Virus record (IMG/VR): IMGVR_UViG_3300018495_000088 | Span: 32,001-96,000 of that record | Direction: 5' to 3' (one strand) | Origin: a virus | Lineage: Duplodnaviria; Caudoviricetes | DNA: 64,000 bases | Part shown: piece after piece, positions 3,488 through 34,900 of the stretch | How positions within the stretch are numbered: the first letter of the stretch is position 1 | How the letters are laid out: the number at the start of each line of letters is the position of its first letter | Notes under the pieces: generated by a model | What the model was told of the DNA's origin: nothing | What the model saw: only the letters and a program-made list of their open reading frames with translations | Databases searched by the model: none | Position numbers and translations under genes: made by a program

Positions 3488-3491
3488 TTAT

Positions 3492-12181: not shown

Positions 12182-12276
12182 TAAACACACATCAAAATGA
12201 TTAAAATGAGAGCGTTTTAAAAGAAGCTCTTTTTAATATTAAAAACTAAAACATATTTAATTAGGAGGACAAAATT

Positions 12277-13879: not shown

Positions 13880-13919
13880 TCTTTAATTAAACATATAGGA
13901 CAAAAAGGAGAAATTTATT

Positions 13920-14465
13920 ATGGCTACAAAAAAATCAACAGTTGAAACCGAAGAAATCATCGATACCGAGGCGGTCGAGGAAGTTAAGCCCGCTCCAAAA
14001 AAGGTCAACAAGCCAAAACACGACCCCAATGAACTTATTCTTTGTAGAAGTGTTCGTTTTGGTGAGCTTAGACTTATTGGTCCAAAGACTCGTATGCCTT
14101 ATAGCTGGGCAAACGAAGGAGATGTGCGAGAGGTTGAATATCAAGACCTTGTATCTTGGAGAGCACTTCATTCTAGATATCTTTTCGAGCCAATGATTAT
14201 CATTGAGGACGAGGATATTGTTGAGGAGTGGAAGGCGGATCTTGGGGAACTCTATGATGAACTTCAGGACATTGATATTAAAGCAATGTTTAAGCTTCCT
14301 CATAGACAGTTTGTCGCACAGCTTAAGAAACTTCCTGCTGGTATGAAGACTACAGTCCAGAATATGGCTTATTCTATGATTCAGGATAGAACTCTTTATG
14401 ACCTTAGAATTATCGACGCTATTGATGAGATTCTTGGTACAGAACTGAAGATGATGATCAACTAA
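13920..14465 (+). CDS. Virion-associated hypothetical protein
   Basis: SD AAAGGAG; directly after the capsid gene. Confidence 0.7.
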   Translation: MATKKSTVETEEIIDTEAVEEVKPAPKKVNKPKHDPNELILCRSVRFGELRLIGPKTRMPYSWANEGDVREVEYQDLVSWRALHSRYLFEPMIIIEDEDIVEEWKADLGELYDELQDIDIKAMFKLPHRQFVAQLKKLPAGMKTTVQNMAYSMIQDRTLYDLRIIDAIDEILGTELKMMIN

Positions 14466-17611: not shown

Positions 17612-17647
17612 ATATTAAAAAAATTTATTTAATGGAGGAAATATATC

Positions 17648-18421
17648 ATGGCTCAGTATGCACTCGATAGAGTTATTAGCGTTGCTGGTACTTACGCAGC
17701 AACCAATTCCAAGAAGGGTATTACTGAAGGCGGCCTCGCATTCCTTTGCGACCAGGTCGTAGACCCTTCTCTTTCTTTTACCTCTGAAACAGAGGATATC
17801 GTAGACGCAAGAAATAATGTAGTAATGCAGCTTCAGGGCGCTCGTGGAGCAACCCTTGGCGCTTCCAACGCTTTCTTCAACACTCAGATCCTTGCAAACC
17901 AGACTGGCGGCAAGGTAGAGGCAATCACCGCAGAGACCTTCGACAAGTACGACATCTGCACTCTTGATGCAGAGAAGAAGGCAACCCTTACCGTTACACC
18001 TTCGGCTGATAGCGAGTATAAGGTGTTCGCTCTTCGTACTGACAATAGCATCACTACTGCAGAGCCCACCGTTGGTACTTACGCTGACGGTAAGGTAACT
18101 GTAGAAAACGGTGTTGAGGGCGACAGAGTTCTCGTTGCTTATACCGCAGAGGTTAAGACTGGTGAGAAGATCGTTGCTCTTGCAGATGCTCAGAACGAAC
18201 TTATGAACGTAACTGCAGAAGTTCTTCTTCGTGAACTTTGCGCAGAGGAGCTTTATTATGCTTACATCATCATGAGAGGTAAGCTCTCTGGTGAGGCTGA
18301 GTGGTCTATGACCAGAGATGGTAACCACGCTTTCGAAATTACTGCATTCCCCTCTTATTGCGATGCAGAGAGAAAGCTTGTTGAAGTTATTATCGTTAGA
18401 GGCGAGGATCTCCTTGCTTAA
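17648..18421 (+). CDS. Major tail (tube) protein
   Basis: 257 aa beta-rich; capsid-like codon bias; strong SD GGAGG; followed by a hairpin. Confidence 0.8.
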   Translation: MAQYALDRVISVAGTYAATNSKKGITEGGLAFLCDQVVDPSLSFTSETEDIVDARNNVVMQLQGARGATLGASNAFFNTQILANQTGGKVEAITAETFDKYDICTLDAEKKATLTVTPSADSEYKVFALRTDNSITTAEPTVGTYADGKVTVENGVEGDRVLVAYTAEVKTGEKIVALADAQNELMNVTAEVLLRELCAEELYYAYIIMRGKLSGEAEWSMTRDGNHAFEITAFPSYCDAERKLVEVIIVRGEDLLA

Positions 18422-18484: not shown

Positions 18485-18850
18485 ATGAATAGAAAGATAT
18501 GTCGCCAATGCGGAAAAGTGTTTAATTATTGCAGAAGTTGCTCATTTAAACCCATTCCGTGGAAAGAGGCTGGATTCTGCAGTCGTGAATGTTCTGCAGA
18601 ACACAAAGAACCAAAAATAAAAGAAGTTATCCCCACAGAGGATGTAGAAGTAGTTGTAATTGAGGAGGATACATCTACGCCAACAGAAAATGCGATAGAG
18701 TGTCCTCATTTTTTTACCGAGGTCGAAGAGTCTGAAATTACATCTACTGAAGAATTTAAGCCTAAAAAGAAAAGGATTAAAACCATAGAAGTGGGACAAA
18801 AGGAGAACAATATAGATGAAAATGAGCAAAATAACGGGTCAGTCATATGA
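18485..18850 (+). CDS. Cys-rich Zn-finger protein
   Basis: CRQC..YCRSC..FCSREC; SD AAGGAGGT. Confidence 0.7.
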   Translation: MNRKICRQCGKVFNYCRSCSFKPIPWKEAGFCSRECSAEHKEPKIKEVIPTEDVEVVVIEEDTSTPTENAIECPHFFTEVEESEITSTEEFKPKKKRIKTIEVGQKENNIDENEQNNGSVI

Positions 18851-19043
18851 CCCAACAAGAGTTGTCTATATTACTAACCCAAAACAACATTTTGCATATG
18901 CAAGATATTTGGGTGGTTGGCAATATTTTGTAGATATGAGTGCTTCGTCTGATAAAAATGATGGTATGGGCGTGTTTATATGGCAAAAATGCCCAGAGAC
19001 AAGAGAAGCAAAACAAAAGTGGGATAACCACGAATTAGAATAA
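18816..19043 (+). CDS. Small hypothetical protein
   Basis: SD AAGGAG; 75 aa. Confidence 0.65.
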   Translation: MKMSKITGQSYDPTRVVYITNPKQHFAYARYLGGWQYFVDMSASSDKNDGMGVFIWQKCPETREAKQKWDNHELE

Positions 19044-19078: not shown

Positions 19079-22000
19079 ATGGCACTTTCATTTGAAGAAT
19101 CTAAAAAACAACTACTTGCCCAGCAGGCGGCCGAGGCACCAGCTATGTTTATGATGAGAAGAGCGGCTCCTGCCTCGGATTTTTGGATCCCCCATAATGG
19201 GTATAGGTGGTTCGAAGATTATTATGATGATAAGATTTCTACGGTTGATGACAATAAAAATATTTTCGTACATGACTCGCAGGTAAATATTTCCCAGGAA
19301 GTTAACAGCCAATTTGTTCCTTTTGAAATGATGAGACGCTATGACAATATAGATTTGGTTAATATGGCGCTCTCGATACATTTTACAACCAGCGACGGTT
19401 ATCACGGTGCGTCGAACCCTGTGAACGTGGAATATAATGACGAGAAGATTAGATTTGCGTGGCTTGTTGATGAAAAGGTAACTCATGTAGCAGGCAATAT
19501 TAAATTTGAAATTCACGCCGATGGTGCAATTACAGATACCAAAGGTAATTCATACGGATATCGCTGGAAGTCTCAATCTACCGACAAGTTTAATATCGTA
19601 AAGTCCTTGTGCGAAGACCCTAATTGCGAACCCGTAGCTGTTAGCGACGATTGGGTTGTAGAGATAGTTGAGTCTGTCACGGCCTCTGTCGCTGAAAAAA
19701 TAGCGGAGGCTGAAGTTGGAGCAGAAGTTGCAAAAGCCGAGGCCGCAGCCGCAAAAGCTGAAACTGCTGCGAGCAACGCTGAATCTGCAGCGGAAACAGT
19801 TGTAAATAATGCATTGGTTGGTTATAGTACGACTACGGAAATGCAGGAGCAGATTGCGCAAGCAATTGAGAATGCTGATATTGACAATAAGCTTACGGCG
19901 TATGCAAAGACGGAAACTGTTAATGCATTAATCGGAGATATTGGCGAAAGCGAGTCTGTTGTTAGTTATGTTGATAATGCCGTTAAGGGCGTAGATGTCA
20001 CAGAACAGCTAGCTAATTATGCGTTGAAGGATGAAGTTCCAACTAAACTTAGTGAGCTTGAGAATGATGCAGAGTATGTAACTACTAGCGAAATGCAGGA
20101 GGCAATTGACAGCGTTGATGTGTCTGAGCAGTTGGTTGACTATGCTAAAGCTAAGGACGTTGATGATAAGATTTCTGTTGTTCAAACACAAGTTGATACA
20201 AACAAGGGCGATATTTCGGCACTTTCTGGTAAGGTTTCGACCAACGAAACTAATATTGGAGACTTAACTTCCAACGCAACAACATTAAGTACGAAAATTA
20301 CCGACTTGGAAGCCGCAGTTAAAGAGATGGCGGATCAAGCTGGTTATGAATATTATGCAACTTATGGAAAGACCACACTTGAAGCGACTGGCGAGGAGGC
20401 TGAAAACGTCTTTACTTTATATGAAGTGGACGGCAGTTCAGAGTCTGTAAAGAGCCAGTTTGTTATTACGGGTGGCTCTGGGGGCGGAAATGTAGCGGCA
20501 ACTACTCTTACCGTAACGCGCGTCACATCTTCGCCTTTAACTATTACTACGAGCGATAAAGCTATAATTGAGTTTAATTGTACATCTTATGATGCAGACG
20601 GCGAAACCGTTGATTGCTCTTATACTTGGAAAAAGGGCAGTTCTGTTATTATGTCTGGTTCGCTTGCACAAGGTCTTAACACCTTTGATTTGAGTGAGTA
20701 TGTTACAACGGGTACACACAAGTTTACCCTTACTGTTACCGATGAAGGCGGATCTATGTCTGTTAAAACTTGGACCGTTCAGATGGTCGACGTTCACATC
20801 GAATCTTCGTTTAACGATCAAAGAACTTATGTGGCGGGTGATACAGTTAGTTTTACATATACACCCTATGGCGCAATACCAAAGACTGTACATTTTAAGC
20901 TCAATGGTGTTGAACTTGAGTCCGTAAATACTACCGCTTCTGGCTTATTGCAATCTTATACATTGCCTGCGCAGACTCACGGCGCACATTTGCTTGAAGT
21001 TTGGATGACGGCAACTGTAAATAGTGTGGAAATTGAAACACCTCATATTTATAAGGACATCATTTGGTATGATTCTGAGTCGGACATTCCTGTTATTGGA
21101 TGTATTTATCGATATGATTATTACGGCATTGTGGCGGCCCGTCAGTATAATGCAACGGAGATTACTTATGTTGTATATGACCCGTCTGCTGAAAACCCAA
21201 CAGTAATTCGTTATGTTGATGGAGTATCTATTGGCGAACAGACCCTTGAGGGTGCTACCGATACTTGGTCCTATAAGTCTTCTGAAGTTGGCGAAAAAAT
21301 ACTTACCATTGAGTGTGGCGTAACTTCTGTGGAAATCAAACTTGATGTTGCGGAGCTTGGTATTAATATTGAGCCTGTTATAGCAGGTTTGGCATTTGAC
21401 TTTAATCCGACTGGCTATTCCAATAATGACACCGATAGAATTTGGTCTGATGCAAAAACGGGCATAAAGATGTCTGTGTCTGATAATTTTGACTGGACTA
21501 ACGGTGGATATCAGAGAGATGAGAATGGTGACACATATTTCTGTGTAAAGGCTGGCACAACGGCTACTATTAACTACAATCTCTTTGGATCTGATTATGA
21601 CCCCAAGGCAACAGGCAAAGAGTTTAAGTTTGTATTTAAAACCACAAATGTTAAAAAGCGTAGTAGCACTTTCTTGTCTTGTATCGACGGCGAAACTCCC
21701 ATTGGTCTTGATATGAAGGTTGAGAATGCGAAGATTTATGCGAGCAACAAAGAACTTTATGTTCCTTATTGCGAAGAAGATATCATCGAATTTGAGTTTA
21801 ATATTAACAAAGACACCGATATTCCTATGGTTATGACATACGAAGATGGTGTTGCTAATAGACCTTTGATTTATGCAGCCGACTCGTCATTTATGCAACT
21901 TGCGGCACAACCCATTACGATTGGTAGTGCAGACTGTGACGTTCATATTTATCGTATGAAAGCATATGATACGAGCTTGACAGATAAAGAGATTTTGACA

Positions 22001-25000
22001 AACTTTATTGCGGATGCTCGTAATGCAGATGAGATGATTGCAAGATATAATCGCAATCAGATTTATGACGAGAATAACGCATTAACACCTGAGACTTTGG
22101 CTGAAAAATGTCCAGATCTCCGTATCATTATGATTGATGCACCTTGGTTCACCAATGATAAGGATGATAAGGTTGGCGGTACTACTATTCGTCAGATTTA
22201 TAAGGGTGGAGATGCACTATTAGATAACTGGACTTGTACTGGAGCAAAACATAGTGGACAAGGTACTAGTTCTAATAAGTACGGTTACGCAGGTCGTAAC
22301 ATTAGACTTATTATGAATGAAGATGAATCTTTGTTTACATTTAATGGTACAAATGAAGACGGAACTCCTATTACTGGCAAGAAAGTTACCTTTACTAGAG
22401 GCTCGGTTCCTACTGACTATATGAATATCAAAGTCAACATCGCTTCGTCTGAAAACCAAAATAACGCACAGTTTGCTCAGAGATACAATGAGTTCAACCC
22501 CGTTGTTAGACTTGCAAAGGTAGATGATCCGAAGGTTAAAGACACTATGGAGTTTCATAACTGTGTAGTCTTTATTCGTGAGAATGAAGAAGACTTGACG
22601 AAACATAGAGAATTCAATGATACTTCTTGGCATTTTTATGCGATCGGTAATATCGGCGACGATAAGAAGACAGATAAAACCAGGGTTAATGACTCCAAAG
22701 ACCCAAAAGAGTGTATTGTTGAAATTACAGACTTTGATGTGCCTTTAGCAGAATTTCCAACTGGCATTGGTGGTGACTATATTGCCCCCGATGAATTTGT
22801 TGCTGGCAATACTGCGTATGATAACCTATATTCTGAATATGCCTATGATGAAGAGGGTAAATTTAAAGCTTTTGGCGCAGAATCGTATGAATTTAGATAC
22901 GAAATGAAGGGAATTACCGATGAACAGAGACAGGCAAATATTGATGCTTGGCGTGAATTCTATACGTTTGTTATAACTTCTACCGATGAAGAATTTATTA
23001 CAAATATTGAGAATTATTTCGTGCTTGACTCGGCATTATATTATTATCTGTTTACTGAAAGATATTTGATGGTCGATAACAGAGCAAAGAATAGCTTCTG
23101 GCATTATGGTAAATGTGATGATGGTATTTATAGATGGGATTTGTGCTTTGCTTATGATATGGACACCTCTCTTGGTATCGACAACACAGGTAAACTTATC
23201 CTATCATACGGTCAAGAAGATGTAGATAAAGATGCTTCAGGTGCTTACATCTATAGAGCAGCAGAAAGTAATTTCTTCTGCCGTATCAGAGATCTTTTTG
23301 CCGACAGACTCAAGGGTATGTTCCAGAGCCGCGAAAGTCTCGGCGCATGGAGCTCAACAAGTCTAATCAATCAGTGGGATAAAGCACAAAGTCAATTTCC
23401 TGAAGAACTTTGGAGACTCGATATTCAGAGAAAATATCTTAGAACTTATCAAGGAATATCTATTGACAATAGTATCGCGGGTGCTCAGAACCCGATGTTC
23501 TTAGAGCCTATGCTGAATGGTCGAAAGAAGTATCAGCGTAGACAGTTTGAGCGCAACCAAGAATTGTATATGGCAACAAAGTATGTAAGTACTTTTGCTA
23601 AGGATGATTTTATTAGATTGAGATTTAATAATCCAACTAATCCTGTGGTTAAGCAAGATTATACACTTTACCTAACGCCTTATACAGATATGTATATTTC
23701 GGCAGAGTTTGGTAATACTGCACCTATTGTATTTAGAGCAAAAGCTGGTGTCGAATATCCTGTTCGAAGAGAAACCGCTTCCGACACAGCAGATATTGTA
23801 CTTATTTACGGCGCTTCGTTTATTCAGGCGATTGGTGACTTGTCCAAGTGCTATCTTGGAGATAATGACTTTTCGAAGGCATCTCGTTTACAGAGCTTGA
23901 CGATTGGTAGCGACGTTGAAGGATATGAAAATACTTTCATGACTGGACTGGCTCTTGGTAACAATAAGTTACTTGAGTATCTTGATATTCGCAATATTAC
24001 TGGACTAAATAGCGTTGTTGATTTGTCTAACTGTAACAACCTTATCGAACTTCGGGCCGAGGGTTCTGGAGCAACAGGTGTTATTTTTGCAAATGGTGGT
24101 AAGCTTGAAAAAGCTTATATCCCCGCAGTTACATCTCTCACAATGAAGAATCTTAATGACCTTGAGGTTCTTGATATTGCAAGTTATGAAAAACTTCAAA
24201 AACTTGTAGCTGAGAATATTCATAGAATAGATACTCATGCAATTGTTGATGCTTCCGCAAATCTGAACACGGTTAGACTTGTTGGTATTAACTGGTCTAA
24301 GAATCTTAATATTCAAAACACCAATGTTCTTGACAGAATGTCTGATATGCGTGGCGTTGACAATGACGGATATGAAAATAACACCCCTGTTGTTACTGGT
24401 TATATTTGGGTGGCATCTGGCAAAGATAGAGAAATTAGCGAATTTAATGAGTTATGGCCCTATCTTACTATTGAAGCGGATGCTGTTACTAAGCAGTTTA
24501 CGGTTACATTTGTCAATGATGATGGAACCGTATTAGATGTTCAATATGTTGATGCCGAGTCGCTGCCAGTAGATCCTGTCACCAGAGATGAGAATCCAAT
24601 TAGTATACCTACAAAGGCAAGTACTATAAGCACACAATATGAATATACAGGATGGGATTCTAACTTTATTCCTGTTTGGTCTGATCAGATAATCAAGGCC
24701 ACCTATACGGAAAAGGTTAGAGAATATACTGTTCAGTATGTTTCTAACAACAATGTGCTTCAGACTAGTGTTGCACCATATGGTACTATGGTGTCGTATA
24801 ATGGAGAAATTCCAACGTATACTTCGGGAGAAAGCGCACGTAAATATTACTTGTTTGATAGTTGGGATAAGTCTGGTTATGTTGATGGCGATAAGGCTAT
24901 TAATGCAATATTTGATTCGTGTCAGTACGCAGACAAGTATTTTGAAGGGAAAGAGTTATCTTCTCTTCGCCCTGTTGAAGTTTATATGATGACTAAACTT

Positions 25001-26179
25001 AATGCGGCTGGAATAATTTCTATGGCAGACTACATTGGGGCTAAGGATTCGTTGACCATTCAATTAGGTAGCGATGTTAGCTGTTCTGATATTGAAGAGA
25101 AAGTTCTTATTGGAGAAAAAACAGTATTTACTGGCACAAACCATATTGATACAGGCATTAAATTGCTTGCAGAAGATAGGAGTTTTGTTTTAGCCATCGA
25201 TTATAAGATGGATGAAGAAAATGCTGCTGGTGCTGTTTTGGCACAATGCTTCTCAGGACTTGATACAAGCGGTTTCCAGTTAGCATATAATAGCGGGGTA
25301 AAACTTGCATGGGGCAGTTCGTCTATGTCTCCATCGGCTGTTTCAAATCGAGAAATGCTTGTTATTAGGCACATCAAGGGCGAGAATGGCTTGCATGTTT
25401 ATGCTTCTCAAGTAAAAGCAAATGCACCTCTGTATGGGCATTTGAGTGGAGCTCACAATATGGCTCATAATGTGTCTCTGGTGTTTGGTTGCAACAAGCT
25501 CGAAGATGGTTCTTATGAACAATATGGCATGGGAACAATTTATTGGAGTAAAATCTGGTATGCAGATTTGGGTGACGAGATGTGTCATCAACTTGCGTAT
25601 TGGCCGCATGAAGAATTAACACTTGAAGCGTGTTGCGAAACTAATGGTTTATTGAAGCGTAATTATTTAAGTGACAATTCTGGTGCACGTTCTTCTGTAA
25701 CATTTATAGCGTCTACTGTATTATCTCAGCCTATGATTATGGACGAATCTTCATCTTCGAATAATGGCGGATGGAAATCATATTCTCTGAATGAATATTT
25801 GAATAATAGATTATATTATGCATTAGCAAGTCAGTGGAGGCAGCTGATTAAGCAAGTCAAAGTTAAATCTTCGGTTGGTAACAAATCTACTGAAATATCT
25901 AATTCTGATTGTTATATTTTTGTTCCTTCGATTACCGAGCTTGCTTCTAGCGTAACGGGAGAACCTTATGTTAGCGAGGGCACATTAATTAGTCATTTTT
26001 CTTCAAATGAATCGAGAATTTGCCGTACATCTGATGGTAATCCCGTACAGTATTGGACGCGTTCTCCGCATGTTGGTTACACTAATTATGTTCATCGAAT
26101 AGGCGACAATGGTGCACCCCAAGCGGTTACAGTATTAAATACGCAGGATGTTTATGTTAGAATTATGCTTTCTATGTAA
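19079..26179 (+). CDS. Giant multidomain virion fibre/baseplate protein: BppU-like N-term, coiled coil, Ig-like, LamG-like, CotH-kinase-like, LRR, Listeria-Bacteroides repeats, C-terminal DUF6273/CLec-like
   Basis: N-terminal YDNIDL...AGNIKFEI; QGTSS / DNRAKN / YDMDT kinase motifs; LxxLDIxN LRRs; FTVTFVNDDG repeats; C-terminal YWTRSP...VRIMLSM. Confidence 0.8.
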   Translation: MALSFEESKKQLLAQQAAEAPAMFMMRRAAPASDFWIPHNGYRWFEDYYDDKISTVDDNKNIFVHDSQVNISQEVNSQFVPFEMMRRYDNIDLVNMALSIHFTTSDGYHGASNPVNVEYNDEKIRFAWLVDEKVTHVAGNIKFEIHADGAITDTKGNSYGYRWKSQSTDKFNIVKSLCEDPNCEPVAVSDDWVVEIVESVTASVAEKIAEAEVGAEVAKAEAAAAKAETAASNAESAAETVVNNALVGYSTTTEMQEQIAQAIENADIDNKLTAYAKTETVNALIGDIGESESVVSYVDNAVKGVDVTEQLANYALKDEVPTKLSELENDAEYVTTSEMQEAIDSVDVSEQLVDYAKAKDVDDKISVVQTQVDTNKGDISALSGKVSTNETNIGDLTSNATTLSTKITDLEAAVKEMADQAGYEYYATYGKTTLEATGEEAENVFTLYEVDGSSESVKSQFVITGGSGGGNVAATTLTVTRVTSSPLTITTSDKAIIEFNCTSYDADGETVDCSYTWKKGSSVIMSGSLAQGLNTFDLSEYVTTGTHKFTLTVTDEGGSMSVKTWTVQMVDVHIESSFNDQRTYVAGDTVSFTYTPYGAIPKTVHFKLNGVELESVNTTASGLLQSYTLPAQTHGAHLLEVWMTATVNSVEIETPHIYKDIIWYDSESDIPVIGCIYRYDYYGIVAARQYNATEITYVVYDPSAENPTVIRYVDGVSIGEQTLEGATDTWSYKSSEVGEKILTIECGVTSVEIKLDVAELGINIEPVIAGLAFDFNPTGYSNNDTDRIWSDAKTGIKMSVSDNFDWTNGGYQRDENGDTYFCVKAGTTATINYNLFGSDYDPKATGKEFKFVFKTTNVKKRSSTFLSCIDGETPIGLDMKVENAKIYASNKELYVPYCEEDIIEFEFNINKDTDIPMVMTYEDGVANRPLIYAADSSFMQLAAQPITIGSADCDVHIYRMKAYDTSLTDKEILTNFIADARNADEMIARYNRNQIYDENNALTPETLAEKCPDLRIIMIDAPWFTNDKDDKVGGTTIRQIYKGGDALLDNWTCTGAKHSGQGTSSNKYGYAGRNIRLIMNEDESLFTFNGTNEDGTPITGKKVTFTRGSVPTDYMNIKVNIASSENQNNAQFAQRYNEFNPVVRLAKVDDPKVKDTMEFHNCVVFIRENEEDLTKHREFNDTSWHFYAIGNIGDDKKTDKTRVNDSKDPKECIVEITDFDVPLAEFPTGIGGDYIAPDEFVAGNTAYDNLYSEYAYDEEGKFKAFGAESYEFRYEMKGITDEQRQANIDAWREFYTFVITSTDEEFITNIENYFVLDSALYYYLFTERYLMVDNRAKNSFWHYGKCDDGIYRWDLCFAYDMDTSLGIDNTGKLILSYGQEDVDKDASGAYIYRAAESNFFCRIRDLFADRLKGMFQSRESLGAWSSTSLINQWDKAQSQFPEELWRLDIQRKYLRTYQGISIDNSIAGAQNPMFLEPMLNGRKKYQRRQFERNQELYMATKYVSTFAKDDFIRLRFNNPTNPVVKQDYTLYLTPYTDMYISAEFGNTAPIVFRAKAGVEYPVRRETASDTADIVLIYGASFIQAIGDLSKCYLGDNDFSKASRLQSLTIGSDVEGYENTFMTGLALGNNKLLEYLDIRNITGLNSVVDLSNCNNLIELRAEGSGATGVIFANGGKLEKAYIPAVTSLTMKNLNDLEVLDIASYEKLQKLVAENIHRIDTHAIVDASANLNTVRLVGINWSKNLNIQNTNVLDRMSDMRGVDNDGYENNTPVVTGYIWVASGKDREISEFNELWPYLTIEADAVTKQFTVTFVNDDGTVLDVQYVDAESLPVDPVTRDENPISIPTKASTISTQYEYTGWDSNFIPVWSDQIIKATYTEKVREYTVQYVSNNNVLQTSVAPYGTMVSYNGEIPTYTSGESARKYYLFDSWDKSGYVDGDKAINAIFDSCQYADKYFEGKELSSLRPVEVYMMTKLNAAGIISMADYIGAKDSLTIQLGSDVSCSDIEEKVLIGEKTVFTGTNHIDTGIKLLAEDRSFVLAIDYKMDEENAAGAVLAQCFSGLDTSGFQLAYNSGVKLAWGSSSMSPSAVSNREMLVIRHIKGENGLHVYASQVKANAPLYGHLSGAHNMAHNVSLVFGCNKLEDGSYEQYGMGTIYWSKIWYADLGDEMCHQLAYWPHEELTLEACCETNGLLKRNYLSDNSGARSSVTFIASTVLSQPMIMDESSSSNNGGWKSYSLNEYLNNRLYYALASQWRQLIKQVKVKSSVGNKSTEISNSDCYIFVPSITELASSVTGEPYVSEGTLISHFSSNESRICRTSDGNPVQYWTRSPHVGYTNYVHRIGDNGAPQAVTVLNTQDVYVRIMLSM

Positions 26180-26647: not shown

Positions 26648-27514
26648 ATGTACACTATTTTACTCGGCGAAAGTAATGAGCTTATAACAAGTGTGCGAGA
26701 AAGAATTATGCAGCGCAGCAAACTTGTCGATGCTCTTCATTTTCTTGTAGATCCCACATATAAAGGGATTGATATGTCAGACTTCACAGTGACGATGGAG
26801 TACGTTACGCCCGTTAGTAGAGAGTATCGAACTGAGACTCTTGTGAAGTCTGAGGCGCTGTATAAGGAAAGATTAGAATATAAACTTCCTTTTGATACCG
26901 ATTTAACTAAAGAAGCGGGTAAAATTGAAATAACACTTACATTTACTAAGGTAGAAATGGATCCTGATGGCAATGCTATACAGCGTGTTAGAAAAACAAG
27001 CCCCGCTACTGTTACAATTATTCCTTGCGCCGCTTGGTGCAATGTTGTTCCAGATAGTGCTCTTAGCGCCCTTGACCAGAGACTTCTTAAAGTTGATGCG
27101 GCCATTTCTGCCCTTAATGATATGAGTACTTATCTTGATGATAACAAAGCAGACAATATTATTATTGATATGGAGGCAAACACTATTCAGCTTACTGCAA
27201 ATGGAGCGCCCATAGGAGATAAATGCGAAATGCCTGCCAAAGGACATGATTGCGGCATCGAAAGCTTTGTTATTAGCGTAGATGATGAGATTATTATTAC
27301 TTTGACAACGGGTCAAGTTATTAATCTTGGTCAGGTAATCGGGGCGTCTGGCGCAACTTTTGTTCCGCATATTTCGGATGATCTTATTCTCAGCTGGACA
27401 AACGATAAAAACTTGGAGAACCCCAATCCCGTTGATCTTTCGCCTTTTAATGACTGGGTAGAGCTTGGCGACGATGGTGAAGAATCTACCCAGCATAATT
27501 GGGAATATATTTAA
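26648..27514 (+). CDS. BppU-like fibre anchor protein
   Basis: N-terminal YKGIDMSDF...LTKEAGKIEITLTF BppU-like domain; GATFVPHISDD..LSWTND fibre motif; ends NWEYI. Confidence 0.65.
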   Translation: MYTILLGESNELITSVRERIMQRSKLVDALHFLVDPTYKGIDMSDFTVTMEYVTPVSREYRTETLVKSEALYKERLEYKLPFDTDLTKEAGKIEITLTFTKVEMDPDGNAIQRVRKTSPATVTIIPCAAWCNVVPDSALSALDQRLLKVDAAISALNDMSTYLDDNKADNIIIDMEANTIQLTANGAPIGDKCEMPAKGHDCGIESFVISVDDEIIITLTTGQVINLGQVIGASGATFVPHISDDLILSWTNDKNLENPNPVDLSPFNDWVELGDDGEESTQHNWEYI

Positions 27515-27572: not shown

Positions 27573-28955
27573 ATGGCAAACGTGCGTTTTCTGAGTGTAA
27601 AATTACGCTCAACATTTGATGCGCTACTTACCAAAGAAGCAAATGCCTTGTATTGGATTGAGGAAACTCAAGAATTATACAAGGGCTCGACGCTTTATGG
27701 CACTGGTGCACTCGTAACGGATAAAGTCGCTGGACTTCTGTCGCCCGAAGACTATGTTAAGTTTCAGGAACTTACGGCTTCTGGTGGCGGACTTAGCAAT
27801 TTAAAGCCTGTTGATGGAACCATTAGTATTCTTGATGATGCTAATGGCGGCAAAACTATTAGCGTGGCTATCTCGCCTGACGTTGGAAACCAGCTTGTTG
27901 CTGTTGAAGGCGGTTTGTTCGTTCCTACGGCAGTTGTACCTGAGTACTCTATCGAGAGGCAGACAGAAGCAGAAGATGGGTTTGCAGTCAGCTATAAGCT
28001 GAAGAAGACTGTCGACGGCGTCGAATTCTATGTAGGAGACACTATTAACATCGCTCGCGACCTCGTATTGAAAAGAGCAACCCTTGAAACAGTAATTGAG
28101 GATGGTGTTCCTTATGAAGAGGCGAAAGTCGGTGATCCTTACATTAAAATGGAGTTTAATGATGCTAATACATCTAATCTCTATATTCCTGTTAAGGGTC
28201 TTGTAGACAATTATTCTGCGGGGTCTGGCATCGAAATTATTGATAACGAAATTAACATTAAGCTTGCCGATGTGTCTCACGGTCTGCATTTTGTGGACGG
28301 CGCTATGTCTCTTGCTCTTGCAACTCGCAAGGTTGATGGTGCTATGTCTAAGGAAGACAAACTTATCATTGATTCTATTCCTTCTGTTTATGTAGCACGC
28401 AAGTATGACATCACGGACACTCCTGAGGGAACACTTGTAAACTACGGTGAGAAGGAAATCCGTGTTATGTGTCCTGCTGATGCAAAATTCGTTAAACAAA
28501 CCGTTGGCGCCAATGGCAATCCCAATATGTATTATATGACATTCAAGGCGTATGCTCCTGAGGGTGCCGTAAGCTTTAAAGAGGGCGACAGAGGTGTTAT
28601 TATTGATGAAATACATACCTTCGATGATTCTGCTGCAGGAGTAGATGAGTTTGGTCGCAAATATAGCGTTGTTTGGCTTGCTCTCGCATCTTATGACCCC
28701 GCTTCTGATACTTGGACTTATTTTGGTAAGAATTCTTCTGAATCTAAGTATATTGGTTGGGATTACGTGGTAGAGTGGTATGGCGAGAACGGCAAGATTG
28801 CTTGCGATTCTATTCGTATCAATCTTAGTAATGAAGATTGTCATAACAATACTAAGCCTTACTATATGGCTAATTATGTCACCTCTGTTGAGGTAGACGA
28901 ACTCAAGGAGTCTGTTTATGAAATTGAACGGGCTAATACTTGGGGCGAATTATAA
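27573..28955 (+). CDS. Fibre segment protein
   Basis: Mtd_N-like N-terminus; AGLLSPED and DGAMSKEDK fibre motifs; ends TWGEL. Confidence 0.7.
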   Translation: MANVRFLSVKLRSTFDALLTKEANALYWIEETQELYKGSTLYGTGALVTDKVAGLLSPEDYVKFQELTASGGGLSNLKPVDGTISILDDANGGKTISVAISPDVGNQLVAVEGGLFVPTAVVPEYSIERQTEAEDGFAVSYKLKKTVDGVEFYVGDTINIARDLVLKRATLETVIEDGVPYEEAKVGDPYIKMEFNDANTSNLYIPVKGLVDNYSAGSGIEIIDNEINIKLADVSHGLHFVDGAMSLALATRKVDGAMSKEDKLIIDSIPSVYVARKYDITDTPEGTLVNYGEKEIRVMCPADAKFVKQTVGANGNPNMYYMTFKAYAPEGAVSFKEGDRGVIIDEIHTFDDSAAGVDEFGRKYSVVWLALASYDPASDTWTYFGKNSSESKYIGWDYVVEWYGENGKIACDSIRINLSNEDCHNNTKPYYMANYVTSVEVDELKESVYEIERANTWGEL

Positions 28956-29019
28956 TTAAATACTTAAACAATATTAATAATTATTAAAACAAAATTTTAA
29001 TTTTTAGGAGGAAATTATC

Positions 29020-31074
29020 ATGGCTAACGAAATGATCAAATTTTTAAGAGGTAACGTAGCTTCCCTTCCTGCAACTGCAACCCCTGGTGCAGTGTATTTT
29101 ACCAAAGATGAAGGTCTTTACCTTGGTCTTGAAGATGGTTCCTACCATCGTTATGGTGATTTTATCACTGTAAATGATGTAGCTTCCCTTCCTGCTGACG
29201 GCGCACATGAAACTTGCATGTATTACTGCGTAGCAGAAAATGTACTTGCTAAGTGGAATGGCTCTAGCTGGACCCAGATTAACAAGCAGAAGACTCTTGC
29301 AGAACTTGGTGGTGTAGCTAAGTCTGTTTACGAGGCTAAGATCGCTCTTCTTGAGAAGGCTGACTCTGATAACGCTACTGCTATTTCTGGTGTTGACACT
29401 AGACTTCAGGCAGCAGAAGAGAAGCTTAAGTCTGTTGCTACTACCGAGGGTCTTGGTGAACTTACTGATCGTGTAACCACTGCAGAGGGCGATATCGATG
29501 ACCTTGAGGCTGCTATCGGTGAAGGTGGTTCTGTAACCCTTGCTATCGCTGATGCTAAGCAGGCTGGTCTTGATGCTAAGGCACTTGCTGAGACTAAGAC
29601 TACTATGGCTGAGGTTGAAGCTAAGAACTATGCAACCAAGGAAGAAGCTAAGGGTTATGCAGATGCTAAGGATACTGCTATTGGTAATGCTCAGGCCAAG
29701 GCGGACGAGGCTTATACTCTTGCTAGTGGCAAGGCTACTATGGAAGAAGTTAACACCGCTATTGGCAATGCAGGTCACGCTGTAAAGTCCGAGGTTGACC
29801 AGGCTATTGCTGATCTCGATGCTGCTTATAAGAAGGCTGACGGCGACATGAAGACCGAGCTCGAAGGCAAGATTGGCGCAAAGGTTGACCAGTCTGCTTA
29901 TGATGCTAAGGTTGCTGAGCTTGTTGGTGCCGACACTACCCTTCAGGGTAACATTGATGCTCTTGCTGGCAAGGTTGGTACTCCTACCGAGGGCAAGACC
30001 ATCGTTGAGATGATTGCAGACGCTCAGACTGCTGCTACTTACGATGACACTAAGGTTAAGGAAGACATCAAGGCTAATGCTGATGCTATTGATGCAATCG
30101 AAGCAGATTACCTGAAGAAGGCTGACAAGGATGGTCTTCAGGAGCAGATTACTGCCAACGCTAATGCGATTACTCTTCTGACTAACGGTGTATCCGCAGA
30201 AGAGGTTGATGGTGTTAACGACCTTATCCAGTATGTTAAGGAGCATGGTCCTGAAGTAACTGGTATGAAGGAAGACATTGCCGATAACGCAAAGGCAATT
30301 TCTGACCACGAGACTCTTGCTGCTGAGACTTATGAAACTAAGACAGATGCTGGCAATAAGCTTACTGAGGCTAAGGGTTACACCGATACCGAGGTAGCTA
30401 AGGACAGAGCAAGACTTGATGCTCTTGAGCTGATTGACCATGACCACTCTAACAAGGGTGTTCTTGACGGCATTACCGCCGAGAAGGTATCCGCTTGGGA
30501 TGCATCTGAGCAGAATGCTAAGGATTATGTTGATGGCAAGATTACCGATCTGAAGATTGGTGACTATGCTAAGCAGTCCGACCTTGATACTCATACTGGA
30601 GATACTGTTGCTCACATCACTGCTGCAGAGCGTGAAGCTTGGAACAAGGCAGAACAGAATGCTAAGGACTATGCAGATGGTCTTGCAGGCAACTATGCCG
30701 AAGCTGAGCACGAGCATGTAGTTGCTGATATTACTGACTTCGAGGATACAGTAGAAGCAAGAATTACCGCTAAGGGTTATGCTACTACTGGTTATGCAGA
30801 CGACAAGGCTTCTGCCGCTCAGTCTGCTGCTGAAGCAAAGGCTGCAGAACTTGATTCTGCGCTTAAGACTGAACTTGAGGGCAAGATTACTTCTGGTGAT
30901 TCTGCTACTCTTGCTTCTGCCAATGCTTATGCCGACACTGCTAAGAGCGAGGCAATTGCTGCTGCTAAGACCGAGACCGAGTCTCAGGTTAAGGCTCTTG
31001 CTGAGGGTCAGGTTACTACTAACAAGAATGACATTGCAAGTCTGTTTGAGCAGCTTCAGTGGGGTTCTTTTTAA
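29020..31074 (+). CDS. High-expression coiled-coil fibre protein
   Basis: IKFLRG...GAVYF N-terminus; AKxYAD repeats; ends QWGSF; capsid-like codon bias. Confidence 0.8.
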   Translation: MANEMIKFLRGNVASLPATATPGAVYFTKDEGLYLGLEDGSYHRYGDFITVNDVASLPADGAHETCMYYCVAENVLAKWNGSSWTQINKQKTLAELGGVAKSVYEAKIALLEKADSDNATAISGVDTRLQAAEEKLKSVATTEGLGELTDRVTTAEGDIDDLEAAIGEGGSVTLAIADAKQAGLDAKALAETKTTMAEVEAKNYATKEEAKGYADAKDTAIGNAQAKADEAYTLASGKATMEEVNTAIGNAGHAVKSEVDQAIADLDAAYKKADGDMKTELEGKIGAKVDQSAYDAKVAELVGADTTLQGNIDALAGKVGTPTEGKTIVEMIADAQTAATYDDTKVKEDIKANADAIDAIEADYLKKADKDGLQEQITANANAITLLTNGVSAEEVDGVNDLIQYVKEHGPEVTGMKEDIADNAKAISDHETLAAETYETKTDAGNKLTEAKGYTDTEVAKDRARLDALELIDHDHSNKGVLDGITAEKVSAWDASEQNAKDYVDGKITDLKIGDYAKQSDLDTHTGDTVAHITAAEREAWNKAEQNAKDYADGLAGNYAEAEHEHVVADITDFEDTVEARITAKGYATTGYADDKASAAQSAAEAKAAELDSALKTELEGKITSGDSATLASANAYADTAKSEAIAAAKTETESQVKALAEGQVTTNKNDIASLFEQLQWGSF

Positions 31075-31101
31075 TAGAATCTAAATATAAATAAACTTAA
31101 T

Positions 31102-31132
31102 AGGCTAGTGGGGAAACCCACTAGCCTTCTTT
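31102..31132 (+). terminator. Rho-independent terminator
   Basis: AGGCTAGTGGG-GAAA-CCCACTAGCCT followed by TCTTT. Confidence 0.8.
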
Positions 31133-31164
31133 AAAAAAAATAACCGAATGACGAGGAAACAACG

Positions 31165-31831
31165 ATGGCAATACTTAAACCGCTTAGAGGACACAGTTCC
31201 TCATTGAATGCACGACCCTTATGTGACGGTTCTATTTATTTTTGCGTTGATACTGGCCTGTTGTATGTTGATTGTGAAGACGACAAAGGTAATTTGGTGC
31301 GTTTAAATGTGCTTGCGGATCGTGCCAATAAAGTAGGATATACGATAGACGATGTAGACGTAGAGATCAAAGCCTCAGAAATAGCTACTAAGGAATATGT
31401 GCGTGGGTTATTGATGGATAATGGAAATTTTACCAAAGAAATTATTTTTGAAATGATTTACCCCTGTTGGTTCCATTTATATATCGACATCAGATGTATC
31501 TCCGTTAGTTTTGTTTGGATTTGGTTCTTGGGAGAAAATTGAAGACAGATTTTTACTTGCGTCAAGTTCTACTTATTCAATTAATACTGAGGGCGGCGAA
31601 GCTACCCACACATTGACAGTAGATGAGATGCCTACGCACGCACACGATTTCAATAGACATCAATTATGGACTACGGAAACTGCGCCCGAAACCAGTTTGG
31701 AACAAGGTTATGGCGTCACTAACAAATCCGTTGCGATTTATAGAGATACGACCACAACTGCGGGGAGCGGAATGTCTCACAATAATATGCCTCCGTATCT
31801 TGCGGTAAATATATGGAAAAGAGTTAACTGA
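31165..31831 (+). pseudogene. Short fibre with T4 gp10 C-terminal-like baseplate domain, split by a +1 frameshift at 31461-31464 (programmed shift, mutation or sequencing error)
   Basis: Removing one C of CCCC joins the two ORFs and restores IYPVGSIYIST...FGFGSWEKI...GGEATHTLT.DEMP.H.H...HNNMPPYLAVNIWKR. Confidence 0.85.
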
Positions 31832-31993
31832 TATATTTATTTTATAAAAATAGAATTTTTGGGCATATTTAATGCTTAAAACTTGAAAATTACAAATAAT
31901 TAATTTTGAAAACAACAGTTGGCTTTGTAGTCAGAGACACGAAGAAAACTTTTTATATAAAGCCAACATTCTTACTTAGAAGGGAGAATAGAA

Positions 31994-34900
31994 ATGGCAC
32001 TTTGGAAACCATTTAGAGGCAGTCGTGCAGATTTAGATGCTGTTGCTAAACGTGACGGTTATGTTTATTTTTGTGACGATGGAGCCTTATTCTTTGATTA
32101 TACAGATAAAAATGGTAATCTACAAAGAAAACAAATTAACGCTAAAGACGCCGAAACGCTTACAGGCATGTCTTTAGATCAAATTCAAAAATCCATCTCT
32201 TGGAACGACCTGCTTAACAAACCCGAACTTGGTCTTATTGCCGTATATGACGAAATTAGCAAAGGTCTTCTTACCGAAGATGTTCAGGAAACTCTTGATA
32301 AGATAGATACTATCGAGAGCGTTTATGAAACAAAGACTGGCTCTTCGATAAAATTAGATGAAGCTAAGGCTTATGCTGACGCTAACCTTGAAACTGCAAA
32401 GTCTTACACTGATGAGAAAATAGCAAACATTCCAGCTGTAGATTCTTATACCAAACCAGAAATTGATGCCGCTTTAGAAAACAAAGCAAACAACGATCAC
32501 GATCATGATGATATTTATTATACAGAAGCAGAGATTGATGTAAAGCTTTCTGGCAAATCCGACACTGGTCATACTCATAGCAATTATGCACCTACTTCAC
32601 GAACTGTTAACGGAAAAGAACTTTCTTCCAACATTACCCTTTCTGCTTCTGATGTCGGTGCTGATGCAAGCGGTTCTGCTAATACAGCTTTAAATTCTGC
32701 AAAGTCTTATACCGACGATGCGATTGAAGCACTTGGCGATACTTATTACACCGAGGCAGAAATTGATACAAAGCTTGCATCTAAATCGGATTCAACACAT
32801 AATCACGACTCTAAATACGACACAAAGGGTTCTGCTTCTGCTGTTCAAACAAATTTAGATGTAGTAAGCGATACACTCGATTCTCACACAGACGATTCTG
32901 ACATCCACGTAACTACAACAAATAAGTCTAACTGGAATACTGCTTATACTCATTCTCAATCTACTCATGCAAGAACAGATGCAACAAAAGTCGCAGATTC
33001 CACAACTAATGGTAATATTCTTATCAATGGAAGTGAAACAAATGTTTACACACATCCCAACTCTGGCGTAACTGCTGGCACTTATAAGAGCGTGACAGTA
33101 AATGCACAAGGTCATGTTACTGGCGGTACGAATCCGACTACATTGGCTGGATATGGAATTACCGATGCCGAGACTAAGGGTGCGGCAAGTAGTGCTCTTG
33201 CAAGTGCAAAAGAATATACGGACTCTGTAGCATCTGGTAAAGCTAATACAAACCACAATCACGACACTACTTATGATAAAAAGGGTGCTGCTGATAGCGC
33301 ATTGGCTTCTGCAAAATCCTATGCTGATTCTGCCGCTACTACTGCTGCAAATGCTGTTAAGAATGACCTATTAAACGGTGCTGGCACAGCTTATGATACT
33401 CTTAAAGAACTTGGTGATTTGATTGACGACAATGCAGATGCGATTGATGCGCTTGAAACTGTTGCCGCTGGCAAAGCTGACAAAACTCATACTCATGCGA
33501 TTTCGGATGTATCTGGTCTTCAGTCTGCTCTTGATGGTAAGGCAGCCTCTTCTCACGGAACACACGTTTCTTATAGTGCTACGGCTCCTGTAATGGACGG
33601 TACTGCAAGCGTTGGCACCGCAAGTACCGTTGCAAGAAGCGACCATAAACATCCTACCGACACAAGCCGTGCATCTAAAACAGAATTTGATTCTCATACA
33701 AGCAATACAACAGCGCATATTACTTCAACAGAAAGAAGCAATTGGAATGCTGCTAAGACACACGCTGATTCCGCTCACGCACCTTCTAATGCTGAAAAGA
33801 ATCAGAACGCATTTAGCAATATTAAGGTAGGTTCTACTACCGTCGCTGCTGATGCTGCAACTGACACTGTTGAGTTTGTAGGCAGCAACGTCACTATTAC
33901 TCCTGATACGACTAATGACAAAGTGACCTTTACTGTTGCTGATGGTAGCACAAGTGGAAAGGGTGTTGTACAACTCACCAACAGTACATCAAGCACTTCT
34001 ACTACTACCGCTGCAACACCAAGTAGTGTTAAATCGGCTTATGATTTAGCAAATACTGCTAAGACAAATGCTGCAACCGCACAGTCTAGAGCGGATAGCG
34101 CTTATTCTTTGGCTGAAGGCAAAGTTGATAGTTTATCAGACTTAGGTGTAACTGCTACCGCTACCGAGTTGAATTATGTTGATGGAGTAACTTCAAATAT
34201 TCAGACTCAACTGGATGGTAAGGCACCTTCTTCTCACAATCAATCCGCTAGTACTATCACAAGCGGAACTTTATCTTCTGATAGATTGCCTACCGTTCCG
34301 ATTTCTAAGGGTGGCACAGGTGCAACAACTGCGGCTGGTGCTCTTACTAATTTAGGAATTACAGCTACTGCTGCGGAACTGAACAAAATGGATGGTGTAA
34401 CAGCTACAACAACTGAGCTTAACTATGTGGATGGAGTTACAAGTAATATTCAGACGCAGTTGGATGGAAAATTGGATAAAACAACAAAATACGCTGGTAG
34501 TTCAAGCACAGGTGGTGCTGCTAATAGTGCAGTTAAAGCAACTCAAGACGGCAGTGGTAATACTATTACAAGTACTTATGCAACAAAGGCTGAATTAGAT
34601 TCAGCTAAATCAAGCTTGCAAACTTCTATTAACGGAAAAGCAAATAGTTCGCATATACATTCTATTTCTAATGTAACTAATTTACAAAGTTCATTAGACG
34701 CAAAACAAGCAACTGTCACAGGTGCTGCGACAACTATCACAGGTTCCAATCTTACCGCTTCAAGAGCTTTAATTTCTAACTCTTCTGGTAAGGTTGCGGT
34801 TTCAGACATAACATCCACGGAATTAGCGTATTTGGACGGCGTTACAAGTAACATCCAAACACAACTTGATGCCAGGGCAAATAAGTCAGATATTGCAACA

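What the first reader, a model, noticed from the sequence alone, without database searches (positions are those of the whole stretch)
28982..31132. Fibre gene 29020 looks expressed at capsid level and carries both a socket and a plug: a candidate self-polymerising subunit
Seen: its codon usage (GCT, AAG, GAG, CTT, AAC) matches the major capsid and tail tube genes and differs from neighbouring fibre genes. Its leader TATTAAAA...ATTTT...GGAGGAAATTATCATGGCT resembles the tail-tube leader (17613-17653, TATTAAAA...GGAGGAAATATATCATGGCT) and the decoration-gene leader (12237-12282). A strong terminator follows it. Ordinary tail fibres are low-copy. Inference: a high-copy subunit whose WGSF end could bind its own N-terminal domain to form long filaments, or a many-copy head/tail decoration fibre.
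Basis: partly seen in the sequence, partly recalled or inferred. Interest (0 to 1): 0.75.

Follow-up and report, generated by a model that had tools for sequence, protein, structure and literature searches.

The report
Capsid-level-expressed coiled-coil phage fibre shaft
A 684-residue fibre gene of a large uncultured tailed phage is built to be made in amounts like the capsid and tail-tube proteins, which points to an abundant, still unseen fibre structure on the virus particle; there is no support for the idea that it polymerises with itself.

Summary
Gene 29020-31074 has a codon adaptation index (CAI) of 0.75 against the capsid, decoration and tube genes. All 33 other genes score 0.22-0.50, and a synonymous-codon null gives z = 22.8. 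Unsupervised PCA of the 109-kb genome puts the gene among five outliers. It has its own leader (TATTAAAA, then AGGAGG 8 nt before the ATG), as the decoration/capsid and tube units have. A -22 kcal/mol hairpin follows it.

The bias recurs in related phages, where the fibre follows each genome's own preferred codons (Leu CTT, CTA or CTG).

The protein has a 95-residue N-terminal beta module, of which the first 40 residues are shared with neighbouring fibre genes. About 20 helical segments follow, and the protein ends in an invariant free W-x-x-F. It has no tip domain, so I read it as a trimeric fibre shaft needed in excess over its anchor and tip proteins.

Self-polymerisation is not supported. 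The upstream protein's tail ends in M/L/I (0 of 40 in F), while this family ends in F (120 of 121). The module type does not follow capsid or tube type, which argues against direct decoration.

The scan has noted the tail/module pattern before on other DNA. The family has no name in Pfam or PHROGs.

The parts
28982..28989 (+). TATTAAAA, a promoter-like element of the fibre's private leader
   Evidence: The same octamer lies 35-40 nt before the ATG of the decoration/capsid unit (12237) and the tube gene (17613). Related phages carry an A/T-rich ACAAAATT(A/T)AAT element in the same place. No transcription start site was measured.
29006..29011 (+). Shine-Dalgarno site AGGAGG, 8 nt before the ATG
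   Evidence: Read from the sequence.
29020..31074 (+). Fibre-shaft gene, 684 aa
   Evidence: ORF. CAI 0.75. More than 3000 metagenomic homologues, none named. No Pfam or PHROG family.
29020..29304 (+). N-terminal module, aa 1-95: two small beta subdomains (aa 8-51 and 67-86) ending in W-x-QINKQ
   Evidence: AlphaFold2 pLDDT 85. Invariant columns. Always at residue 1 in the 150 best of 787 clusters. Residues 1-40 are homologous to the N-module of the downstream fibre genes (hhalign 97.6%, E 3.8e-12). Foldseek matches N-terminal parts of phage tail fibres in BFVD (26 hits at E<=1e-3). PDB hits are weak only.
29320..31065 (+). Segmented alpha-helical rod, aa 101-682, about 20 helices with short breaks; hypervariable and full of indels among homologues
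   Evidence: AlphaFold2 secondary structure. Periodicity of 3.5-3.8 residues in 10 of 16 helices. Alignment mosaicism. A short stem motif is shared with Listeria phage PSA Gp15, PDB 6r5w (E 0.011).
31060..31071 (+). Free C-terminal W-G-S-F (aa 681-684)
   Evidence: W and F are invariant. W..F ends 120 of 121 close homologues and 114 of 124 cluster representatives of 400 aa or more. It never occurs internally.
31102..31133 (+). 11-bp hairpin (-22.1 kcal/mol) followed by TTCTTT; a terminator or a 3' stabiliser
   Evidence: A near-identical hairpin sequence follows the fibre gene in L002, L012 and L014, and the tube gene in L002.
27573..28955 (+). Upstream fibre protein 'B', 460 aa, with its own N-module (MANVRF...LYW...ELYKG) and the tail ...TWGEL
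   Evidence: CAI 0.465, which is intermediate.
26648..27514 (+). First protein of the conserved triad, 'A', 288 aa, with the tail ...NWEYI; its N-terminal type varies between relatives and it is the presumed anchor
   Evidence: No family match.
31165..31831 (+). Downstream small fibre gene 'D': N-module of the class that follows this family's tail, with a Gp10_C tip domain; broken by a frameshift in a C run near 31466
   Evidence: PF21939, E 1.5e-18.
12237..12276 (+). Matching leader of the 157-aa gene and capsid unit
17613..17647 (+). Matching leader of the tube gene

Best explanation
Gene 29020-31074 encodes the shaft of the phage's fibre apparatus. I read it as a trimeric rod with three parts. 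A 95-residue N-terminal beta module forms the proximal attachment and trimerisation end. A segmented alpha-helical coiled coil follows, roughly 65-85 nm long if extended. The rod ends in a free C-terminal W-G-x-F, which is either the joint for a separate tip protein or a hydrophobic cap of the trimer. There is no receptor-binding tip domain.

The gene is a monocistronic late unit with a promoter-like TATTAAAA leader, a strong ribosome-binding site, optimal codons and a strong 3' hairpin. It probably sits on top of read-through transcription by the phage's YonO-like RNA polymerase. The protein is therefore made in amounts comparable to the capsid and tube proteins, and far above its anchor (A, B) and tip (D, E) neighbours.

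Shown here: the anatomy, its conservation, and the codon and signal features. Inferred: trimer state, presence in the virion, high copy number, and which end is proximal. The excess over anchor and tip proteins means either many fibres per virion or more than one shaft unit per fibre. The evidence here does not decide between these.
For: Codon adaptation equals that of the capsid and tube genes and is unique among 34 non-reference genes. In seven related IMG/VR loci the fibre's CAI, measured against that locus's own capsid and/or tube genes, is 0.66-0.80, while the median of the other genes is 0.35-0.50. The fibre adopts each genome's own preferred Leu codon: CTA 45-47 of 46-48 in L002, L004 and L006; CTT in the window and L012; CTG in L009. 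In 16 metagenomic loci the fibre ranks 1st to 4th in AAG+CAG fraction, and 1st in 10 of them.

The leader and the hairpin are shared with the other two high-CAI units and are kept in relatives. Phage structural genes are known to show translational selection (PMC2266997).

The N-module belongs to the fold class of phage tail-fibre N-termini. The rod carries fibre-stem motifs. The gene lies in a run of fibre genes between the tube gene and the tape-measure gene at 53769-63926.

Split forms exist in L025, L026, L030, L041 and L043. There the N-module and the W..F-tailed rod are on two adjacent genes, both with high AAG+CAG fractions. This shows that the shaft is assembled end to end from segments. 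Ten of the 124 representatives lack the tail; at least three of them, and the N-module genes of the split loci, end instead in a non-helical ...KY end, consistent with the tail being a joint to a separate distal part.
Against: No expression, proteomic or imaging data exist, and no cultured phage carries the family. Codon bias could reflect selection for speed or accuracy in a long helical protein rather than copy number. The anchor-side proteins A and B are only weakly to moderately biased, so a simple 1:1 chain does not explain the excess. AlphaFold2 was run on a monomer only, so trimer state and contacts are untested. The poor U tract makes termination uncertain.
Confidence: 0.55

Rival explanations
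1. Self-polymerising filament. The C-terminal W-G-x-F of one trimer docks into the N-terminal module of the next, and this gives long homopolymeric fibres.
For: Both ends are invariant while the rod between them is hypervariable. The tail must be a free C-terminus. Shaft proteins are in apparent excess over anchor and tip proteins, which a polymer would explain. High-copy 'curly fibre' proteins are reported for Bacillus phage 0305phi8-36 (PMC2147016). In L009 a second highly biased fibre gene carries the module class that normally follows F-type tails together with an F-type tail of its own.
Against: The tail that precedes this module by gene order (family B) ends in M, L or I in 40 of 40 tailed members and never in F. 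This family ends in F in 120 of 121 members. The two tails are different classes, and by gene order this family's tail goes with the next gene's module class. No tandem or fused C-C forms were found among about 310 sequences or in the search for longer proteins. No covariation is visible between tail and module subtypes. Open-ended fibre polymers have no length control.
Confidence: 0.12
2. Head or tail-tube decoration fibre. Hundreds of trimers bind directly to the capsid lattice or to the tube rings through the N-terminal module, as phi29 head fibres bind the phi29 head.
For: Copy-number signals match those of the capsid and tube genes. The leader and hairpin are of the same type as the tube gene's. 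The protein has no tip domain.
Against: The module type does not follow the lattice proteins. L006 has a tube protein 27-32% and a capsid protein 42-45% identical to the window's, but an N-module 81% identical. L009 has a tube protein 89% and a capsid protein 88% identical, but an N-module only 58% identical. The gene always lies inside the fibre cluster behind proteins A and B, not in the head module.
Confidence: 0.15
3. Ordinary low-copy fibre or fibritin-like whisker. Its codon bias and signals serve fast or accurate synthesis, or a chaperone-like role in assembly, and not high copy number in the particle.
For: The architecture (N-terminal anchor, segmented coiled coil, short C-terminal element) resembles T4 fibritin; this rests on my own knowledge. 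Long coiled coils may fold inefficiently.
Against: No other long fibre gene in the window shows the bias: the 1303-, 1013-, 946-, 1837- and 2366-aa genes have CAI 0.31-0.40. The bias is as strong as in the capsid gene and is kept across diverged lineages.
Confidence: 0.13
4. Non-virion protein, for example an intracellular coiled-coil scaffold or cytoskeletal element made during infection.
For: Very high predicted expression. An alanine-rich helical protein with no enzyme or binding domain.
Against: The N-module is homologous to those of neighbouring tail-fibre genes and matches tail-fibre N-termini by fold. The rod has fibre-stem motifs. The gene is syntenic within the fibre cluster in the related loci examined.
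Confidence: 0.05

Closest known systems
T4 fibritin (gpwac), the collar and whisker fibre
   Same: An N-terminal attachment domain, a segmented trimeric coiled coil with loop breaks, and a short C-terminal element at the free end, with no receptor-binding domain. This comparison rests on my own knowledge, with the anatomy taken.
   Different: No foldon: the end here is a helix finishing in W-G-x-F. The N-domain is unrelated. Fibritin is present in few copies, whereas this gene is tuned like a capsid gene. No sequence or fold match was obtained.
phi29 head fibre gp8.5
   Same: A high-copy, mostly helical trimeric fibre attached by its N-terminal base and lacking a large tip domain (my own knowledge).
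   Different: The gp8.5 gene lies next to the capsid gene and the protein binds the capsid lattice. Here the gene lies in the tail-fibre cluster and its module type does not follow the capsid type. No homology was detected.
T4 long tail fibre (gp34-gp35-gp36-gp37), a fibre built end to end from separate gene products encoded in order
   Same: Consecutive genes, N-terminal modules and C-terminal joints suggest serial assembly. Split and fused forms of this shaft exist.
   Different: The T4 segments are equimolar. Here the shaft is tuned for far higher output than the anchor and tip proteins. The joints here are short W-x-x-hydrophobic tails, and their binding is unproven.
High-copy 'curly fibre' proteins of Bacillus thuringiensis phage 0305phi8-36 (PMC2147016)
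   Same: A precedent for large virion fibres built from high-copy-number proteins, encoded beside low-copy paralogous fibre proteins in a phage of Firmicutes.
   Different: That phage is a myovirus and no sequence relationship was found. Its fibre proteins were assigned from virion proteomics, which is lacking here.
Mtd (Bordetella phage BPP-1) and HylP (streptococcal prophage) N-terminal modules; Pfam Mtd_N PF18454
   Same: A short N-terminal beta module of the pattern R-G-x4-L...G-x-x-Y/F...D-x-G at the start of a trimeric fibre. The 946-aa fibre gene in this window scores on Mtd_N (E 8.1e-5). Foldseek lists Mtd, HylP and CBA120 TSP3 N-termini among weak hits.
   Different: The target itself gives no Pfam hit even at E<=10. 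It has a second subdomain (aa 47-90) that Mtd_N lacks.

Membership tests
Pfam Mtd_N (PF18454) | Score above the Pfam gathering threshold on the N-terminal ~37 residues | tested here: not met
   No Pfam hit for aa 1-130 at E<=10. The paralogous module of the 946-aa gene scores 22.9 bits against a cut-off of 26.3. A relation by profile to the neighbouring fibres' module is shown (hhalign 97.6%). The atlas gives only leads.
Phage tail-fibre N-terminal module (fold class) | A small beta domain at residue 1 of fibre proteins, followed by a trimeric stalk | tested here: met
   AlphaFold2 pLDDT 85. 26 BFVD matches at E<=1e-3, including annotated tail fibres and an Mtd_N protein. The module is at residue 1 in the 150 best hits.
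Fibritin-like fibre (T4 wac) | C-terminal foldon (beta-hairpin propeller) that nucleates trimerisation | tested here: not met
   The last 16 residues are modelled as a helix ending in WGSF, with no beta element. No PDB sequence match.
Fibritin-like fibre (T4 wac) | Segmented parallel trimeric coiled coil | tested here: inconclusive
   About 20 helical segments with 3.5-3.8-residue periodicity. The oligomeric state was not testable with single-chain models.
High-copy virion component (capsid or tube class) | Codon adaptation and expression signals equal to those of the major capsid and tube genes | tested here: met
High-copy virion component (capsid or tube class) | Measured abundance in virions | not testable with these tools
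   No cultured member and no proteome.
Self-polymerising head-to-tail fibre subunit | The subunit's own C-terminal tail is of the class recognised by its own N-terminal module | tested here: not met
   The tail preceding this module ends in M/L/I (40 of 40 tailed members; 0 in F). The subunit's own tail ends in F (120 of 121). This is indirect, because it assumes that gene order reflects docking.
Self-polymerising head-to-tail fibre subunit | Physical binding of the tail to the module, or filament formation | not testable with these tools
Capsid or tube decoration fibre | The attachment domain co-varies with the lattice protein it binds | tested here: not met
   The N-module is 81% identical where the tube protein is 27-32% and the capsid protein 42-45% identical (L006). 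It is 58% identical where the tube protein is 89% and the capsid protein 88% identical (L009).

The most novel reading that the evidence does not exclude
A widespread family of large uncultured siphophages builds very long or very numerous fibres from high-copy shaft units. The units are joined by a modular code of free C-terminal W-x-x-hydrophobic tails and N-terminal modules. Shaft units such as this gene, or the second shaft gene in L009 whose tail and module classes match each other, would repeat within one fibre. That would make them polymeric fibre subunits expressed at capsid level, with no characterised counterpart.
Probability: 0.2. Interest if true: 0.8.

Novelty: new variant of a known kind. 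Interest (0 to 1): 0.55.

Why it matters
Fibre proteins are normally minor virion components. Here a fibre shaft is tuned like the capsid protein, and this holds across a family with 787 clusters (at 50% identity) at E<=1e-10 and with no cultured member. That implies a major structural feature of these particles that nobody has seen: many fibres per virion, or fibres built from repeated units. The clean anatomy (conserved module, free W-x-x-F end, variable rod) gives a directly testable system for learning how modular fibres are joined. It could also guide annotation of thousands of unnamed metagenomic proteins.

Tried and rejected
- The VIA-align libraries were not installed.
- tblastn of the whole protein and of aa 1-130 against 50,697 phage records gave no match.
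- The scan of GTDB representative genomes found no relative.
- Pfam and PHROGs gave nothing for the target. The only trace was a stray 16.5-bit PHROG hit.
- The PDB sequence search gave only a short stem motif shared with Listeria phage PSA Gp15 (E 0.011) and coiled-coil noise.
- Foldseek against the PDB gave no hit at E<=1e-3.
- A search among longer proteins for fusions that would tie the tail to a module found one protein, which again has the module first and the tail last.
- I looked for covariation between tail subtypes and module subtypes across about 25 loci and saw none.
- The lactococcal phage PhiL47 with a 280-nm tail fibre (PMC3888941) was considered as a morphological analogue. It has no detectable homologue of this gene, so I dropped it.
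- The sigma-70 consensus scan found nothing convincing in front of the gene.
- I considered using a stop-codon read-through translation to fold the tail with the next gene's module.
Full report
**Setting.** The window is bases 32001-96000 of a single 109,162-bp contig. All long genes lie on the + strand.
- The capsid gene (12773-13879) is about 30% identical to the major capsid proteins of large Bacillus siphophages (FADO, PBC2, Kirov) and of the Lactococcus 949 group.
- The 3385-aa gene at 53769-63926 is the tape-measure protein (PhageMin_Tail).
- A 949-aa YonO-like single-chain RNA polymerase gene ends at window position 1672 (PF05183, E 1.3e-14). Its relatives are in Clostridium phage c-st, Enterocloster phages and SPbeta-like Bacillus phages.
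- The finding lies in a long run of fibre genes between the tube gene (17648-18421) and the tape-measure gene.

- CAI was measured against the capsid gene, the tube gene and the 157-aa gene upstream of the capsid gene. The target scores 0.75, the reference genes score 0.77-0.81, and every one of the other 33 genes scores 0.22-0.50. The long neighbouring fibre genes score 0.31-0.40.
- I kept the fibre's amino-acid sequence and redrew its codons from the usage of the other genes. This gives 0.339 +/- 0.018, so z = 22.8. The bias is even along the gene.
- The pattern is specific to codons. AAG is 0.97, CAG 1.00 and CTT 0.83, and the same rare codons are avoided as in the capsid and tube genes. 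GC3 is lower than theirs.
- An unsupervised PCA of codon usage over the whole genome separates five genes on the first axis: capsid, tube, an unidentified 311-aa gene of the early region, the 157-aa gene and the target.
- TATTAAAA lies 35-40 nt before the ATG of exactly the three high-CAI late units. Each is followed by (A)GGAGG.
- The hairpin at 31102-31127 has a free energy of -22.1 kcal/mol, but its U tract is poor. The tube gene ends with a similar hairpin of -22.8 kcal/mol.

**It replicates in relatives.** IMG/VR gave 14 loci and metagenomes gave 27.
- In seven IMG/VR loci I built the CAI reference from that locus's own capsid and/or tube gene. The fibre scores 0.66-0.80, equal to the reference genes, while the median of the other genes is 0.35-0.50.
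- The fibre follows each genome's own preference. Leu is CTA in 45-47 of 46-48 codons in L002, L004 and L006, where the capsid and tube genes also use CTA. It is CTT in the window and L012, and CTG in L009.
- In 16 metagenomic loci with a complete gene, the fibre ranks 1st to 4th in AAG+CAG fraction and is 1st in 10 of them. Where I looked, the genes above it are tube-sized genes or the partner shaft gene.
- An A/T-rich leader and a strong hairpin flank the gene in relatives. The hairpin sequence is often almost the same as in the window.
- This is translational selection maintained in diverged lineages. Such selection is known for phage structural genes (PMC2266997). High output is therefore a sound inference, though it was not measured.

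**Anatomy.**
- Homologues number more than 3000 in the 90%-clustered collection, and none is named. A profile of the N-terminal 95 residues finds 787 clusters (at 50% identity) at E<=1e-10. The module is at residue 1 in all 150 best hits.
- Alignment shows a nearly invariant N-terminal ~125 residues, a mosaic rod rich in indels, and an invariant extreme C-terminus.
- W-x-x-F ends 120 of 121 close homologues and 114 of 124 representatives of 400 aa or more. The motif never occurs internally.
- AlphaFold2 models aa 1-135 at pLDDT 85, as two small beta subdomains followed by a helix from residue 101.
- The full-length model (pLDDT 71) has about 20 helical segments up to residue 682, so the last helix reaches W681-G682 and S683-F684 end the chain. 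Most helices show 3.5-3.8-residue periodicity.
- Residues 1-40 are homologous to the N-module of the downstream fibre genes (hhalign 97.6%, E 3.8e-12).
- By fold, the module matches N-termini of many phage tail fibres in BFVD. In the PDB it matches only weakly (CBA120 TSP3, HylP, Mtd).
- There is no tip domain.

**What the context says.** The gene is the third of a conserved triad.
- Protein A ends in W-E-x-hydrophobic. Its N-terminal type varies strongly between relatives.
- Protein B has its own N-module and a W-x-[ED]-[M/L/I] tail.
- This protein ends in W-G-x-F, and genes with a third module class follow it.

Earlier notes of this scan had proposed a plug-and-socket chain for such clusters on this and other genomes. 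I tested parts of that idea.
- The tails are class-specific. Of 51 members of family B, 40 end in W-x-x-[M/L/I] and none ends in F. This family ends in F.
- In L025, L026, L030, L041 and L043 the N-module and the W..F-tailed rod lie on two adjacent genes, and both have high AAG+CAG fractions. In L030 the first gene matches the window's module (63% over 94 residues). The second matches the window's rod and C-terminal blocks (E 2e-4).
- Ten of the 124 representatives lack the tail; at least three of them, and the N-module genes of the split loci, end instead in a non-helical ...KY end.

Taken together, these results support end-to-end assembly from segments, with the tail acting as a joint that needs a free carboxy terminus. 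They do not prove it. A hydrophobic cap on the trimer remains possible.

**Where the excess goes.** Anchor-side and tip-side genes are weakly to moderately biased, while the shaft genes are extreme. L009 has two consecutive highly biased shaft genes.
- A 1:1 chain does not explain this.
- Direct decoration of the capsid or the tube is unlikely, because the module type is uncoupled from both proteins. L006 has a tube protein 27-32% and a capsid protein 42-45% identical to the window's, yet its module is 81% identical. L009 has a tube protein 89% and a capsid protein 88% identical, yet its module is 58% identical.
- Self-polymerisation through the protein's own tail and module conflicts with the class difference between the tails, and no fused forms support it. 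It is not excluded.
- My conclusion is a high-copy trimeric shaft, present either as many fibres per particle or as several units per fibre. The geometry is unknown.

[quoted passage not shown] Here the YonO-like gene sits directly upstream of the late cluster. The three TATTAAAA leaders may therefore be extra promoters that raise output of the three high-copy units above read-through, and the hairpins may stabilise or delimit the transcripts. This is inference.

**Comparison and novelty.**
- The architecture resembles T4 fibritin and, in copy number, phi29 head fibres. The defining foldon is absent, the capsid coupling test fails, and there is no homology to either.
- The serial assembly resembles the T4 long tail fibre.
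- High-copy fibre proteins have a precedent in phage 0305phi8-36 (PMC2147016).
- The family has no Pfam or PHROG name and no cultured member.
- I class it as a new variant of a known kind.

Noticed in passing
window 31165-31831: The small fibre gene after the target is split into two ORFs by a frameshift in a run of four C near 31466 (...EMIYP | VGSIYIS...). Its C-terminal part is a T4 Gp10_C-like tip domain (PF21939, E 1.5e-18). This could be a sequencing error, a pseudogene or a phase-variable tract.
   Followed up: partly
window 1-1672 (whole gene: contig 30823-33672, L016:3824-6673): A 949-aa YonO-like single-chain RNA polymerase (PF05183, E 1.3e-14) lies directly upstream of the late structural cluster. 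It is 30-36% identical to genes of Clostridium phage c-st, Enterocloster bolteae phages and a Bacillus subtilis phage (BUCT082), and 24 Bacillus phage records match in all. It suggests late transcription of the SPbeta type.
   Followed up: partly
contig 13481-14416, minus strand (outside the window; L015:482-1417): An unidentified protein of about 283-311 aa is the only non-structural gene with capsid-like codon bias (PC1 1.24). It has its own terminator and no Pfam match.
   Followed up: partly
window 2875-3567: An array of eight tRNA genes (Ala-UGC, Glu-UUC, Asn-GUU, Asp-GUC, Tyr-GUA, Thr-UGU, Met, Arg-UCG). Ala, Asp, Glu and Thr are the four most abundant residues of the fibre (18.1, 9.6, 9.1 and 9.1%). 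However, the fibre's preferred Ala and Thr codons (GCT, ACT) are not the direct matches of these anticodons.
   Followed up: no
L009:9989-12385 and L009:12459-14549: One relative has two consecutive highly codon-biased fibre genes. The second combines the module class that normally follows F-type tails with an F-type tail of its own (...SWIEF). By the gene-order rule this makes it the better candidate for a self-complementary unit.
   Followed up: no
L025, L026, L030, L041, L043 (e.g. L030:3413-5110 and 5129-7756): Split form of the family. Gene 1 carries the N-module and ends in a non-helical ...NFKY or ...QYKY end. Gene 2 starts MAIEKTYLLGKN...PLDSR and ends in W-G-x-F. Both have high AAG+CAG fractions.
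   Followed up: partly
window 31102-31127; L002, L012, L014 downstream of the fibre gene; L002 downstream of the tube gene: The hairpin sequence GGCTAGTGGGGAAACCCACTAGCC is nearly identical in otherwise diverged phages and is reused after the tube gene in L002. It may be more than a generic terminator.
   Followed up: no
window 19079-26179: A 2366-aa virion protein with a weak CotH-kinase-like match (E 9e-4, below the Pfam cut-off) and a C-terminal DUF6273 domain (E 1.4e-15) precedes the triad. It is present in L001, and shorter relatives are present in L007 and L008.
   Followed up: no
window 18816-19043 and 18485-18850: A 75-aa ORF is conserved in the five loci compared (37-64% identity). 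A Cys-rich gene of about 120 aa follows the tube gene in most of them. Neither has a known function.
   Followed up: no
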